A DNA stretch of 64,000 bases from Eledone cirrhosa (taxonomy: Eukaryota), in NCBI GenBank assembly GCA_964016885.1, contig OZ024740.1:215822001-215886000 (forward strand), given 5' to 3'. Shown piece by piece: positions 987 through 59,930 of the stretch. Both the position numbers and the translations under genes were made by a program. Under the pieces are notes generated by a model. It made no database searches, was not told where the DNA came from, and was given only the letters and a program-made list of their open reading frames with translations. Within the stretch, counting starts at the first letter, position 1; each line of letters starts with the position of its first letter.

Positions 987-1286
987 AGGATAATTGATAA
1001 GGTTGTGATACATATTTCAATGGCGACAGTGGCCATGCGATTCCAAATTAAAACAACAAGGGACGGACGAAGATGCTGTTCTGGAAGCCTTCACCCGTTT
1101 CCTTGTGACATAATAGAGAAGGCTTCAAGAACATCATCTTTTAACACCTGAAACTACTTCGCATTTTATTACTCTAAATATACTACGTCATTCCTATGTG
1201 GATAAATCACGTAGAGTGCTTCAATTGAATTGCATCAATATTTACCGTAAGTATACAAGTGTATATATATATATATATATATATAT

Positions 1287-1560
1287 ATAATAACTAGAAA
1301 TTGATTAACATATAAATAAACATGAATAATCACAGGAGATCATTTTTACAAGTGTGTAAGCACACATAGCTAGGTAGGTAACTAAATAAAGTTAACCAGA
1401 ACTTCAAAAATGATTATTCATGTTTATTTATATGTTAATCAATTTCTAGTTATTATAAAATGCTCGGACCTATTCGTTAGAATCTTAGAGCTTATTTTGC
1501 GGGTGATATGGCGCATGTCTTTCTGGCATGACACCCATAATTTTGATTATCTTAATTTTG
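1287..1560 (+). mobile_element. Palindrome+tail element (putative truncated PLE with inverted pLTR)
   Basis: Inverted arms ~1287-1332 / ~1411-1456, tail to ~1560, flanked by (TA)n. The tail is homologous to 13888-13990. Confidence 0.65.
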
Positions 1561-2312
1561 TATATATATATATATATATATATATATATATATTTCACAC
1601 ACACACACACACACACACACACACACACACACACACACACACACACACACACACACACACACACACACACATATGAAAAGGGTAGAAGAACCTCTTAGTT
1701 CTTGCACTATCACAAAGATGTTCAGTTAACGGATTGCTATCTTTTCCTGGCCAGTGAGGTAAAAATAATGAAATGTCAGCAGAAGTGCTATAGTCTAAAT
1801 TAAACTCTCTGTGAAAATAACACTGGTCAAATTACAAACTTCTAGCAACGATCTTTCCTCAAATGTCTGAGTAGACCAGTCAGAACATTTTCCGAAAACT
1901 GCTTCAGTTTTCCTTCCTGTGAGTATAATATTTATTTTCATTTTGTTTGTGTTAAGATATGGTTACTGACTAAGCTCTTCCTGGTGAATAAAGGAAAAAT
2001 AGTTCAGAGTTAAACTTTAGAAAGTTCATAGAAAAGAGTTGCAAAGTTTTGCATATCTTTTTCTTTTGTTCGTACTTTGGCAGTTCAACAGTTTCCACCT
2101 TTAGTTTTATTGTTTTATTCAATTTTATCACATTGGGTGTGAGGTGGGAAGTGGTGATACAATTTTCAGGAACATTTGAGAAAAAGCCTGGGAGGGATTC
2201 CTAAGAGAGCATTAGTGAGGCTCTGATATGTTTATTGTGCATAAACATATGGTATATATGCTTTCATATACAGCTCTATTATACATAGATACATACATGT
2301 TGAATGTGAAAA

Positions 2313-2465
2313 ATAATGGTTCCTGATTTAGGCACAAGGCTAATAATTTTGGGGGAGGAGACATTCGTTTAAATCGATCCCAGTGTGTTACTGGTACTTT
2401 AATTTATCGACCCCTTAAATATGAAAGGGAAAGCTAACTTCAGTGGGATTTGAAATCAGAATGAT
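2313..2465 (-). mobile_element. SINE family 1 fragment
   Basis: TTTAGGCACAAGGC...CTGGTACTTTAATTTATCGACCCC...GGATTTGAAATCAGA. Confidence 0.75.
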
Positions 2466-2574
2466 TGAAGAAAAATAAAAATAAAATGCGAAAATGGGAA
2501 ACAACATATTTAATAACATTATAAATTATTTATAATTCTTACAAAATGAAAATGGACATAAATAATAAATATAT

Positions 2575-55790: not shown

Positions 55791-56159
55791 CAACCATCAC
55801 TACTACTACTATTACTACTGCTGAAGATGATGGTGGTGATGGTGATAGTGTTGATGATGATTGTGGTGGTGGTGGTGATGGTGGTGATGGTGATGGTGGT
55901 GATGATGATGGTGGTGGTGGTGGTGAGAATGATGATGATGGTGGTGGTGGTACAGTGGTGGTGGTTGTGATGGTAATGGTGATGATTAAGATGGTAGTGG
56001 TGATGGTTGTGATGGTGTGGTGGTAATAGTGGTGACAGTGGTAGTAGTTGTGGTGGTGGTGGTGGTACAGTGGTAGTGTTGGTAAGGTTGGAGGGTCATG
56101 AGGGAAGTGTTGATGAAATTTCGGCTGCAGTTTCTTGTCAGTTCATTTTCACACCAATC

Positions 56160-56765
56160 TTTATGAAATTTCACTGTCGACAGACAGAACTCACAAAACT
56201 CGGTCTACTTATCTATCTAAAACGAAAGGCAGCCAGTTTTCCTGTGTATAGTGGCTATGGTAAAAGTGGTTATATGGTGGACGAGATTGAGAGGATTGAG
56301 GACAGATGCCTTTCTCTCCGGACAACTAACTCATTCCCTTCTTTAGGTACCACTTTACAAGGAGAATCAAGAGTGGAGAGAGAGAGAGGCACTGCACTCC
56401 AGTAAATTTACTGAAAGGTGGGTGAATGTAGCAAAAATGGCCCGAGTGATTGGGCCTTCTCTGTATATAAACCTGTAGGTTGAAGAAGAGAGCAAAAGGA
56501 GTTGAGGGTTGTTCTATCTACGGGGTATTAAACAACCCATTTGTAACGCCCCCCCCCCCACCCTATTGGGGATTTCGATTGTTAAATTTGTTTGTATTAA
56601 TAATATTTTTACACGACTGTATATAAAATCCCCGGCATATGTCTTTGTATTGTCCCCTTTTTTGTGCGCCCTTGTGGCAAATAAAGAAATCTATCTATCT
56701 ATCTATCTATCTATCTATCTATCTATCTATCTATCTATCTATCTATCTATCTATCTATCTATCTA
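56160..56765 (+). mobile_element. L1/Tx1-like LINE 3' end with (ATCT)n tail
   Basis: Degenerate ORF2 C-terminus FLCIVAMVKVVIWWTRL...RRIRVERE...KFTERW. The 3' UTR ends AATAAAGAA(ATCT)n. Confidence 0.55.
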
Positions 56766-56882
56766 CACACATAACAAACATACACACATGCACGTATAAT
56801 TGTTTACATATATAAACAATGAAGAACGTGCTAATACAATGACCAGTCATGAAAACACAACTATGGACCACTAGGGAGAGAA

Positions 56883-57645
56883 TACTACTACTACTACTAC
56901 TACTACTACTACTGCTGCTGCTGCTGCTGCTACTACTACTACTACTACTACTACTACTGTTTCTGCTACTGCTGCTACTACTACTACTACTACTACTACT
57001 ACTACTACTACTACTACTACTACTACTACTACTACTACTACTACTACGACGACGACGACGACGACTACTACTACTACTACTACTACTACTACTACTACTA
57101 CTACTGTTGCTGCTACTCCTCCTCACCCTCCTCCTCCTACTCCTCCTCCTCCTCCTACTCCTCCTCTTCCTACTACTACTACTACTACTACTACTACTAC
57201 TACTACTCCTACTACTACTACTACTACTACTACTACTACTCCTCCTCCTCCTCCTCCTCCTACTACCACTACTACTACTACTACTACTACTACTACTACT
57301 ACTACTACTACTACTACTACTACTACTACTACTACTACTACTACTACTACTACTACTACTACTACTACTACTATTACTACTACTACTTCTACTACTACTG
57401 CTGCTGCTGCTACTGTTACTGCTGCTGCTGCTACTGTTACTGCTACTACATTTGTTCAACTCTGTAAATATGTATTGGTTGTTCAACGGAAATTTACACG
57501 GACACACACACACACATTCATTCACCCACACATGTATATGAGTGTTTATATTACTACTACTACTACTACTACTACTACTACTACTACTGCTACTGCTGCT
57601 GCTGCTGCTGCTACTGCTGCTGGTGCTGCTGCTGCTGCTGCTCAA
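56883..57645. repeat. (CTA/CTG/CTC)n microsatellites
   Basis: Direct inspection. Confidence 0.95.
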
Positions 57646-59930
57646 AGCGGTGCCCCAGCATGGGTGCAGTTTAATGACTGAAACTAGTGTAAGAATATAA
57701 AAGAATATATAAATATATATCCAGGGAGTCTAGCATGAACTTACTGTAGGTTCACCCAGGTGAGCACTCGATGTTCATTCTGTCATTACAACAGCAGAGG
57801 TCCGACAAAAAGGGTTTTATTTACAGTATTAACAATTGTTTCAATGATCAGGTGAGTCTAAAGGCCGCTGATCACTCGAAATGGCGTCACTAGACCTTAA
57901 ATACAGTGTGTGTCTCTGATCAAATCATCGGAATATTGGAGGGTGTAACAGATGGCATTGGTATTTATAGATACATCGGAGAATCAAGTGAATGAAAACA
58001 ATAACATCAATAATAAAAGATAATAAACAATAATAAAAGTATAAAGAAGTAAAAATGCAAATGATAAAGATGTAAAAAAATAAGTTAAAAATAAGTACAA
58101 AATACGGTTACTGATAATAGTAGTGGTGGTGGTGGTAGTTGAAGTTATAATGGTGAGTAAGTGGATGTATAAAATAGTGATGACAGAAATACGCAATATA
58201 TGATATGTAGTGTATTGAGTTCTTGAATTGGCAAAATGAAAATGCAAGAGGTACAATAAAATATGAGAGGATTAAATAAAAAATAAAAGTAAGAGAGAAA
58301 GAGATAAGGAACAGGAGATAGAAAATAAGAATAAGGATTCGAGGATGAGACATAAAGGGTAGGACTAAGGACGGGGAAGCAGTAGATAGATAGAAAATAA
58401 AAAGTGAAAGAGGCAGTGATGATATATAGGTGATTAAGGTCTGGTAGACTGATTGTTTTATCTTAATGGAGGTGATGCGGCTACAGAGAGAGAGAGAGTG
58501 AAAGAAGGGTTGGGAGATTCATGATGTTGATTTAATGATCAGTTGGTCAGTTGACAGCTAATAACAGTGGAGTGGTGTGAAGCTAGTACATTTAAATCCG
58601 GGTGGTTTTGACTGAATTCCGAGATTGCTGGATCGAATCATGCCTGTTGTGGTTTGAAGTTAGAGAATTTGGTGGCTGCTTTGTGCCTACAGAAGATTGT
58701 TCCCTCTATCTTATTATTAAGTAGCATTTTATCATATTTTAAAATATGGAGCAGCTCCATACTGCATAGTCCGCAGTGGGACATTCCACTTTTGTAGGGA
58801 CCTTGCATAACTTCGACCAGCTAATCTCATATTCCTGGTTGATGCCAGATCTTATTGACCAGCGTCGTTGTATTCTCAAGTCTACGGTTTTTATACTGAA
58901 TGCCTATGCACATACCATAATTTTTTGAAATCTCCAACTGTAGCACCTATGTAGTGCCATGCTAGGTTTCCAGATTTGATAGTACACAGGTTCACTATAC
59001 TTGATTCTTGGCATCTATTCTGTAGTGGGCATTTTTCCGATAGGTGGCAGTTACATTTGGAGGTCTTCCTGTGTGCAAGTTCTCCGTTGCGGATCTGTAT
59101 GTTGTTAGGGATGGGCTGAGATTTAGGTTTATGTGTGTTTTGTTGCGATGTGCCCTGGCGTGTGGGTGGTTGTGATGTTGTTATGTGTTTGCGTTTTGTA
59201 TTTGGTGTATGTTGGTAGATTACTTTCCTTAGAGATTCTTTTATAGTTGATTTTATGTATGTGTGATTCTATGTTGGCTGCACTAGAGAGTTTGATAGTT
59301 TTTCTGTTAAAGTTTCTATGGTATTTGTGTAGTTTAGGGAAGTGTTTGTCAATTAATTTAAAGAATGTAGAAGGTATGTTGCTTTTTATAGAAGAGTTGA
59401 AGATTGGATTGAACCATAAATATTTCCCATCTCTGGATTTTCTGGAGTTTCTAGGGGTCCCTATATTAGTGTTCGGTTCGGCTATTTCGCGTGCTCGTTG
59501 CCTATTTCCATGTTTAGTTCTATATTTGTTATTCCTATAGGTGCGGTTGTGTAGTTGTCGTTAGGTTTGTAGTTGCTGTCTCTACCGGGTATGTATTTGA
59601 GCCCCTACTTATGGCCTGCCTTGTGTAAAGCTATGTTATAGTAGTTTGCGTGTTCATTGAAAATTTCTAGGTTAGAAGATAGGCGGGATATTGTAAGGGA
59701 TATACTATGTGCTATCGAGTTAATTATGGTGCGAGAGGGGGTGGGTGAGTTATAATTAATGTAGGCTAGATTCTCGTTATTTTTATGGAAAGGCTCTATT
59801 AGTCCTGTGTTTAGGTTGAGCGTTACATCTAAGAAGTCTGCTTTTTTAGAGTTAAGTTCGAAAGTGATATCTAGGCCTAGTTTATTGAAGAAGACTGATG
59901 TTTTTACGTAGTCTTCCCATGCTTTGATTA

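What the first reader, a model, noticed from the sequence alone, without database searches (positions are those of the whole stretch)
1214..57769. Conserved quasi-palindromic GAGYRCTY motif in the tails of unrelated families
Seen: GAGTACTC (family A, 4126), GAGTGCTC (family C, 3137), GAGCGCTT (11783), GAGTGCTT (9357, 22626, 39523, 1214), GAGTGCTC (10021, 10602), GAGTACTC (39824) and GAGCACTC in the tail of coding PLE #2 (57762). Where an inverted arm is clear, the motif sits about 15-40 nt beyond the point at which the arm stops, although the surrounding sequences do not align. Inference: a shared cis-signal such as an RT or endonuclease binding site, an RNA dimerisation site, or a ruler that fixes the arm end. 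It is absent or degenerate in some tails (PLE #1, 14672-14705).
Basis: partly seen in the sequence, partly recalled or inferred. Interest (0 to 1): 0.78.

Follow-up and report, generated by a model that had tools for sequence, protein, structure and literature searches.

The report
Twin RNA hairpins mark retrotransposon ends
The motif is one side of a small hairpin, predicted to fold in RNA, that occurs twice in a row in one group of Penelope-like jumping genes, with inserted copies ending a few bases before one or the other hairpin, so the hairpins likely tell the element's reverse transcriptase where to start copying, which would explain the long-unexplained 'tail' on these elements.

Summary
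The motif is real: all 11 sites are correct. It is in 9 of 29 non-alignable tail groups on the sense strand against 0.15 in shuffles. It is not a palindrome signal: only 9 of 58 de-replicated instances are self-complementary. GAGY is the 3' strand of a bulged stem-loop (RCUC / upper helix / loop / UN bulge / GAGY) with compensatory changes.

The carriers are Hydra-clade Penelope-like elements and their short derivatives, not unrelated families. The stem occurs twice between the hammerhead and the ORF start, in this genome and in metagenome elements whose RTs are about 41% identical to it (9 of 15 junctions against 0.27). Insertions end -1 to +9 nt before stem 1 (arm ends) or just before stem 2 (tail ends). 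Stem 2 was predicted and then found in rare run-on copies. Tail length tracks stem spacing (r=0.99, n=6).

Best reading (0.7): each stem binds the RT and fixes one of the two internal start sites reported for PLEs. Binding is untested. Nine literature searches found no description.

The parts
4106..4133 (+). Family A stem 1 (ACTC 4106-4109 pairs with GAGT 4126-4129; 3-bp upper helix, TT bulge) plus 3' ACTC, in the tail 4098-4177 of an inverted-arm insertion 3997-4177
   Evidence: MFE fold; 34 of 34 family A arm ends lie 5 nt before this stem; family A runs into a Hydra-type ORF with a second stem in L335
3121..3144 (+). Family C stem 1 plus octamer
11767..11790 (+). Family C stem 1; this copy has an A.C mismatch at the outer pair (GAGC against family GAGT)
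22610..22633 (+). Family C stem 1 plus octamer
39236..39587 (+). Complete short insertion in (TA)n: inverted arm from 39236, direct copy with hammerhead core 39400-39441, site-1 position ~39498-39507, stem 1 39507-39526, octamer 39523-39530, tail end 39587
9334..9364 (+). Stem 1 of the family-C relative (F106); upper helix imperfect in this copy
10005..10028 (+). Stem 1 of F55 (1-nt bulge, 4-bp upper helix); family linked to a Hydra-type endonuclease in L043
10602..10626 (-). Stem 1 of F116 (GCTC/GAGC, 4-5 bp upper helix, TA bulge); sense octamer GAGCACTC; family runs through stem 2 into a Hydra ORF in L025
39824..39852 (-). Stem 1 of F31 (ACTC/GAGT, long upper helix, TT bulge)
1182..1221 (+). 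Stem of the 1214 family; the 5' strand reads ACTA in this copy and ACTC in the L020 copy
57720..57806 (-). 5'-truncated piece of short family S (sense octamer GAGTGCTC at 57762-57769, imperfect stem 57766-57800) fused to the 3' UTR of PLE #2
24383..24407 (+).
4693..4726 (+).
   Evidence: the MFE of this copy does not show the stem
5392..5416 (+). Stem-2 candidate after a run-on tail of an F41 relative (outer pair mismatched, 5-bp upper helix, TC bulge)
62783..62945 (+). Native tail type of the PLE #2 family (F24): long-loop stem 1 at about 62790-62860, and an octamer at 62896 with no partner strand
   Evidence: stem coordinates approximate, taken from the family consensus
58900..60000 (-). Broken ORF of PLE #2 (RT end, CxCx5C linker, GIY-YIG region): Hydra-type
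15975..19300 (-). PLE #1 (GPKF, DKG, RVT_1; Neptune-like by recalled motifs): negative control, no RCUC/GAGY stem in its tail or its 5' junction

Best explanation
GAGYRCTY is the 3' strand and flank of a conserved bulged stem-loop that occurs twice between the hammerhead and the start codon of Hydra-clade Penelope-like elements, and each copy likely binds the element's reverse transcriptase on the RNA and sets a start site for copying a few bases to its 5' side. Shown in sequence: two stems in tandem; compensatory pairing; arm ends and some direct ends just before stem 1; tail ends just before stem 2; tail length about equal to stem spacing; an AU-rich stretch 5' of the stems. Inferred: the RNP forms on a read-through transcript that spans both stems; the endonuclease nicks (TA)n; the nicked 3' end anneals to the AU-rich bases beside a stem and is extended, so the bound stem itself is not copied. 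Priming from one target strand at stem 2 gives the copy with a tail. Priming from the other strand at stem 1 gives the tail-less inverted arm. More speculative (about 0.4): a protein dimer holds one stem per subunit. Short derivatives would be mobilised from source loci that keep both stems.
For: Stem starting within 25 nt of the arm end in 14 of 29 groups, against 0.66 in shuffles (max 5) and 1 on the reverse strand; all 14 start 5-14 nt from the boundary. Metagenome junctions, not used to design the descriptor: at least 1 stem in 14 of 15 (shuffles 2.5, reverse strand 5) and at least 2 stems in 9 of 15 (0.27, max 2; reverse strand 1). G000 ORF-start groups with a hammerhead: at least 2 stems in 5 of 8, against 0.05. 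Covariation with anchors that do not use the tested pairs, 58 instances: Watson-Crick at the outer pair 50 against 33.5 permuted; upper pairs 52/26, 38/16 and 39/15. RNAalifold: outer pair GC 23, AU 4, UA 1, broken 2 of 30. Per-copy ends: family medians -1 to +9 nt before stem 1 in 14 families, with 0-2 ends elsewhere per family; 34 of 34 at 5 nt in family A. Same-contig metagenome ends 2-3 nt before a stem in L216, L222, L225, L226. Stem 2 found 6-7 nt past the tail end in run-on copies of A, F18, F116, F74 and F16. Tail length against stem spacing r=0.99, n=6. Stem 2 is absent from tail-ended copies yet sits next to their end, so it must act on a longer template. Internal RT initiation at two sites that define the tail is shown in vitro for a Poseidon PLE, whose protein is predicted to be a dimer (PMC11167929). 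The best structural match of the protein model is TERT.
Against: No binding, structure-probing or TPRT data. 15 of 29 tail groups fail the strict descriptor; some are other clades (PLE #1) and some were not assigned. In family 14 the second hairpin is a different one (GCAC/GTGC, no bulge) and its ends lie a median 10 nt from it. Exceptions to the end rule: L207 ends ~13 nt after motif 1 and L201 ~24 nt before stem 2. Single genomic copies fold weakly: of the 9 sense-strand folds, z was below -2 in 2, and the MFE lacked the lower stem in several. RNA against DNA is only weakly resolved: G.U 10 against A.C 2 in the upper helix, but 3 A.C and 0 G.U at the outer pair. Permutation values ignore relatedness. 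r=0.99 partly restates that both ends lie next to stems. Of 6 published Hydra consensi seen, 3 show canonical stems, 1 a variant and 2 none (by eye).
Confidence: 0.7

Rival explanations
1. The hairpins act in DNA. A longer cDNA or tandem intermediate is cut by the GIY-YIG endonuclease at a fixed distance from each single-stranded DNA hairpin, which creates the two ends.
For: Watson-Crick covariation fits either strand. Craig et al. ascribe the tail to EN-mediated resolution. The D. virilis tail was needed for EN recognition (as reported in PMC11167929). GIY-YIG nucleases that cut single-stranded DNA near a specific repeat exist (PMC11893778, abstract).
Against: RT start sites define the tail in vitro for PAc. 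Weak G.U excess on the sense strand. Integration would need a joining step other than target priming (inference).
Confidence: 0.12
2. The stems are protein-binding operators for translation control or packaging near the start codon. The ends are set only by annealing of the (TA)n primer to the AU-rich bases that happen to lie beside them.
For: Both stems lie within ~210 nt of the ORF start. The 5' flanks are 62-93% A/T.
Against: Ends are sharp even where TA microhomology is short (family A, 34 of 34), and other AU-rich parts of the tails are rarely used (0-2 ends per family). The rule holds at both stems, with tails of 68-134 nt.
Confidence: 0.1
3. The octamer is a self-complementary RNA dimerisation (kissing) site that joins two template RNAs.
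For: In G000 alone 6 of 18 octamers are self-complementary with G.U allowed. Minimal PLE hammerheads work as dimers (PMC4209133).
Against: The centre is CA in 35 of 58 instances and only 9 of 58 are self-complementary. GAGY is paired intramolecularly with a covarying RCUC.
Confidence: 0.03
4. Neutral relic of shared ancestry, or chance.
For: The families linked to an ORF belong to one clade.
Against: Flanks do not align; RTs are 37-62% identical; pairs change in compensatory fashion, even between the two stems of one element (family A: ACTC/GAGT then GCTC/GAGC); position relative to the ends is kept.
Confidence: 0.03

Closest known systems
Hydra clade of Penelope-like elements (Craig et al. 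2021, PMC8557442; seen: part 2 of the text, section 11, passages, supplement parts 52-53 and supplement searches)
   Same: RWK, DKT and CxCx5C motifs, C-terminal GIY-YIG, hammerhead, (TA)n targets. Their File S7 consensi contain the stems: two in Hydra-1_Ajap, one each in Hydra-2_Ajap and Hydra-2_Amil.
   Different: The main text has no match for 'hairpin' and does not describe these stems in the passages returned. It gives the tail as 30-40 bp and ascribes it to the endonuclease; here most tails are 65-165 nt.
PAc (Poseidon of Anolis) internal RT initiation (Frangieh et al. 2024, PMC11167929; seen: parts 1-2 of 4 and the text of Suppl. Fig. 1)
   Same: Two internal start sites bound the tail; the RNA must extend 3' of them; AT-rich targets; predicted dimer.
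   Different: Starts are in one AC-rich stem-loop inside the ORF. The RNA printed in Fig. S1 has no GCUC/GAGC stem (by eye). No repeated motif per start site is described.
3' stem-loop of eel LINE UnaL2 and its SINEs (PMC1636434; abstract only)
   Same: Conserved bulged RNA hairpin shared by autonomous and non-autonomous partners and needed for retrotransposition.
   Different: A single hairpin within the shared 3' tail. Here there are two, each just 3' of a start site, and the distal one is not copied.
Telomerase RNA elements that position the template (recalled, not from a call)
   Same: RT-bound RNA helices fix which bases are copied; the Hydra protein model is closest to TERT (3du5, E 1.8e-8).
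   Different: No sequence or structure homology of the RNAs was tested; telomerase reuses one short template.
Non-LTR retrozymes (PMC7229834, passages; bioRxiv 2026.07.22.740005, parts 1-3 of 5)
   Same: Short hammerhead-bearing PLE derivatives.
   Different: Those are tandem arrays. These are solitary or inverted-arm insertions in (TA)n. No downstream stem is mentioned in the parts read.

Membership tests
Hydra-clade PLE | RWK motif; DKG changed to DKT; GxKF/Y not conserved | tested here: met
   92 homologs of at least 660 aa (of 120): RW[KR] 85, DK[TS] 92, DKG 0, G[PL][KN][FY] 0; the family A ORF shows RWR and DKT
Hydra-clade PLE | CxCX5C linker; CxxC and CxH in the endonuclease | tested here: met
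   86 of 92 and 67 of 92; window PLE #2 has the linker
Hydra-clade PLE | C-terminal GIY-YIG endonuclease | tested here: inconclusive
   PF01541 at residues 599-639 in 1 of 5 proteins scanned; the others gave no Pfam hit there
Hydra-clade PLE | Canonical hammerhead near the 3' end; insertion in (TA)n | tested here: met
   Hammerhead cores by pattern; (TA)n ends in metagenome copies; in G000 ends were selected at microsatellites, so that part is by design
Hydra-clade PLE | Placement with reference Hydra RTs in a phylogeny | not tested
Palindromic RNA dimerisation site | Self-complementary octamer kept across instances | tested here: not met
   9 of 58
PAc-type initiation stem-loop | Both start sites within one AC-rich stem-loop in the ORF | tested here: not met
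   Starts lie 5' of two separate stems upstream of the ORF
RT-binding RNA element (LINE 3' stem-loop kind) | Conserved secondary structure with covariation | tested here: met
RT-binding RNA element (LINE 3' stem-loop kind) | Bound by the RT and required for mobility | not testable with these tools
   Needs EMSA, TPRT or a mobility assay
Known Rfam family | Match to a covariance model | tested here: inconclusive
   The 150 best of 419 matches were microsatellite- or palindrome-driven hits below gathering scores; 269 lower rows were not shown

The most novel reading that the evidence does not exclude
Hydra-clade PLEs carry a built-in pair of RT landing pads. A protein dimer binds two tandem bulged hairpins on one RNA, one per subunit, and primes cDNA from both nicked target strands, so hairpin spacing sets the tail and twin priming makes the inverted arms. 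The ~25-nt hairpin would be a portable signal for internal, target-primed initiation by a telomerase-related RT.
Probability: 0.4. Interest if true: 0.88.

Novelty: new variant of a known kind. Interest (0 to 1): 0.76.

Why it matters
The PLE 'tail' and the inverted-arm insertions have been described for about two decades without a sequence rule. In 2024 the tail was tied to two internal RT start sites, but what selects those sites was left open (PMC11167929). A small covarying RNA element present once per start site gives a direct, mutable hypothesis: move or break a stem and the start should follow. It explains why tail length varies between families, gives a marker for annotating Hydra-clade ends and their short derivatives (27 octamer sites in this 64-kb window, most in such elements), and bears on how telomerase-related RTs came to use RNA structure to choose a template.

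Tried and rejected
Palindrome or dimer reading: rejected.

Nematis assignment, my first guess from recalled motifs: dropped after the diagnostic motifs matched Hydra.

57762 as the PLE #2 tail: rejected.

Extension of the lower helix into RCTY: not found (18 pairs against 22.9 permuted). What RCTY does remains open; a protein-read single strand is my guess.

Arm/direct junction geometry, to tell fold-back from twin priming: family A centres are mostly 1-22 nt imperfect loops and the 14298 family centres are near-perfect. Not decisive.

Homolog search with the PLE #2 endonuclease fragment: 0 hits among 31 candidates.

Rfam: nothing relevant among the rows shown.

RNA runs: no RNA holder listed; no evidence either way.

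One fold (24359-24443) was given on the antisense strand and is not counted.

Lunse et al. 2017 is not held. Arkhipova 2006, Evgen'ev and Arkhipova 2005, Pyatkov 2004 and Repbase reports were not read. Earlier scan findings: none.
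Full report
OBSERVATION. All 11 octamers are present. The pattern has 39 strand-matches in the window against 5.9 +/- 2.9 expected; these are 27 distinct sites. Most lie in short insertions in (TA)n that have an inverted arm, a direct copy and a tail. Where a hammerhead core is present it lies upstream of the tail on the same strand, which fixes the sense strand. On that strand 10602, 39824 and 57762 are minus-strand sites. 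57762 belongs to a separate short family fused to the PLE #2 3' UTR.

DE-REPLICATED TEST. I fetched 1.37 Mb of G000 at even spacing, next to the window, and around four earlier family A hits, plus 29 PLE #1 loci. Families were defined only by ends at microsatellites: 164 end families, paired into arm-end and tail-end classes, plus inverted-arm singletons. Before counting I removed by hand 14 families that were themselves arm ends, SINE-like or nested neighbours, set one tail length by hand and added one window element. 50 tails collapsed to 29 non-alignable groups. GAGYRCTY is in 9 of 29 (sense), 0 antisense-only and 0 on the arm side; shuffles give 0.145, max 2. In the 11 groups with no window member it is in 2, against 0.044.

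WHAT IS CONSERVED. Reading the tails showed an RCTC 5-14 nt after the arm end that can pair with GAGY, with an inner helix and a 2-nt bulge starting with U on the 3' side. A strict descriptor finds this in 14 of 29 groups, against 0.66 in shuffles (max 5) and 1 on the reverse strand, and in 5 of the 11 window-free groups, against 0.28. I designed the descriptor after seeing these tails, so these counts are not held out. For covariation I anchored on CTC and T-N-GAG only. 25 of 50 G000 tails lacked the anchors and 13 metagenome sites were dropped; 103 instances collapsed to 58. Watson-Crick pairs: outer pair 50 against 33.5 permuted (GC 40, AT 9, TA 1); upper pairs 52/26.1, 38/16.4 and 39/14.6. 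At a stricter threshold (18 instances) all four stay above the permuted means. These permutations ignore relatedness. RNAalifold on 30 of 32 short-loop instances (two mis-anchored rows left out) returns the same 4-bp lower helix, with 5 double changes at the outer pair; the other three pairs are the invariant anchors. The octamer is self-complementary in 9 of 58, with centre CA in 35. The metagenome anchor constrained octamer positions 7-8 but not the centre.

WHICH ELEMENTS. tblastn linked several tail families to coding copies. Run-on copies link family A (L335) and F116 (L025) directly to ORFs. 92 full-length homologs (of 120) show RW[KR] 85, DK[TS] 92, DKG 0 and CxCx5C 86, the diagnostics given for the Hydra clade. 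PLE #1 has GPKF and DKG and no such stem in its tail or 5' junction. A model of one Hydra protein (pLDDT 90) is closest to TERT, though TM-scores are only 0.3-0.4.

TWO STEMS. 77 metagenome loci were fetched (hosts not determined; RT identity median 50% among the 15 tested and 41% to four G000 ORFs). The stem appears about 45-80 nt 3' of the hammerhead and again before the start codon. Of 20 hammerhead-ORF junctions, 15 after de-replication, 14 have at least one stem and 9 at least two; shuffles give 2.5 and 0.27, the reverse strand 5 and 1. In G000, 88 ORF-start loci form 17 groups; of the 8 with a hammerhead-like core, 5 have two stems against 0.05 in shuffles. One large group chains two families (sequences). 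Six published Hydra consensi were seen: two stems in Hydra-1_Ajap, one each in Hydra-2_Ajap and Hydra-2_Amil, a variant in Hydra-1_Crog, and none recognised in Hydra-1_Amil or Hydra-1_Obim (by eye).

ENDS. The last base shared with the element lies -1 to +9 nt (family medians) before stem 1 in 14 families, with 0-2 ends elsewhere per family; in family A 34 of 34 arm ends lie at 5 nt. In three junction references site 2 lies 0, 4 and 10 nt before the second hairpin. The model predicted a second stem just past the tail end of window families. Rare run-on copies show it 6-7 nt past the end in A, F18, F116 and F74, an imperfect one at window 5392-5416, and a different hairpin in F14; run-ons of F72 show none, and the F17 run-on enters family 29, possibly a nested insertion. 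F16 has it too. In metagenome contigs, of 21 3'/5' comparisons 10 stop at contig ends and one (L227) runs on into the ORF. Among the other 10, L216, L222, L225, L226, L228 and L191 end 1-3 nt before a stem, L192 and L198 were aligned to a distant relative and are imprecise, and L201 and L207 do not fit. Site 1 is also used by direct copies behind an ORF (L019; L225 and L226), so it is not only a fold-back stop. Tail length and stem spacing: 80/78, 90/88, 77/76, 89/83, 134/137, 68/71, r=0.99; a seventh pair was dropped because I had mis-entered its tail length.

MECHANISM. Shown: twin stems, covariation and end positions. From the literature: in PAc, reverse transcription starts internally at two sites that bound the tail, needs RNA 3' of them, and the protein is predicted to be a dimer. 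Inferred: each stem is bound by the RT on a read-through RNA; the nicked (TA)n end anneals to the AU-rich bases 5' of the stem (62-93% A/T) and is extended; priming of opposite target strands at stem 1 and stem 2 gives arm and tail. Stem 2 is missing from tail-ended copies, so it must act on a longer precursor. RNA over DNA rests mainly on the PAc data; the G.U against A.C count (10 against 2 in the upper helix, 0 against 3 at the outer pair) is weak.

NOVELTY. Nine searches ran, on terms joining Penelope, Nematis or Hydra with tail, hairpin, stem-loop, bulge, hammerhead, initiation, cryo-EM and octopus. None listed a paper describing these stems. The Hydra paper's main text has 0 matches for 'hairpin'. 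Not seen: Lunse 2017, the older Arkhipova reviews, Repbase reports, figure images, the GenBank supplement of PMC11167929 and bioRxiv supplements; any of these could mark the motif. RT-recognised stem-loops are a known kind. A tandem pair placed just outside the copied region, one per start site, appears to be a new variant.

VERDICT. Real, conserved across distant Hydra-clade elements, and different from the first description. RT-positioning RNA stems 0.7; DNA-level cutting 0.12; operator only 0.1; dimer palindrome 0.03; neutral 0.03. Interest 0.76.

Noticed in passing
window 57720-57830 (-): A piece of short family S is joined to the PLE #2 3' UTR about 30 nt before that family's usual site-1 end; possibly a template switch between two RNAs that use the same RT.
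   Followed up: partly
window 15975-16030 (-); L337, L338: PLE #1 (Neptune-like) has a 4-bp hairpin with a 3-nt loop about 6-10 nt past each of its two end positions, with different sequences; may be an analogous signal, one family only.
   Followed up: no
L285-L314, L347, L356: Family 14 replaces stem 2 by a GCAC/GTGC hairpin without a bulge; Hydra-1_Crog also has GTGC on the 3' strand.
   Followed up: partly
L336; G000 C1 right of the window (F74 run-on): Run-on copies of F18 and F74 keep both stems but no ORF follows; candidates for source loci of non-autonomous families.
   Followed up: partly
window 62896-62903: Octamer without a partner strand 42 nt before the end of the 162-nt F24 tail; possibly a decayed duplicated stem.
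   Followed up: partly
L323, L326, L344: A (TA)n tract sits inside the loop of stem 2 (L323, L326) or between the stems (L344), so the element carries its own target sequence.
   Followed up: no
family A copies, e.g. window 3997-4097: Inverted arms are mostly 35-80 nt with 1-22 nt imperfect centres, clustered near short internal palindromes; the 14298 family has near-perfect 120-190 nt arms.
   Followed up: partly
window about 500-960: Tandem array of about 76-nt units.
   Followed up: no
window 60210-61506 (+): Two overlapping ORFs (221 and 227 aa) between two PLE #2-type pieces; they resemble a DNA-transposon protein (recalled, not tested).
   Followed up: no
G000, places listed: Many Hydra-type open frames of 758-920 aa in near-identical copies, suggesting recent activity of several families.
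   Followed up: no
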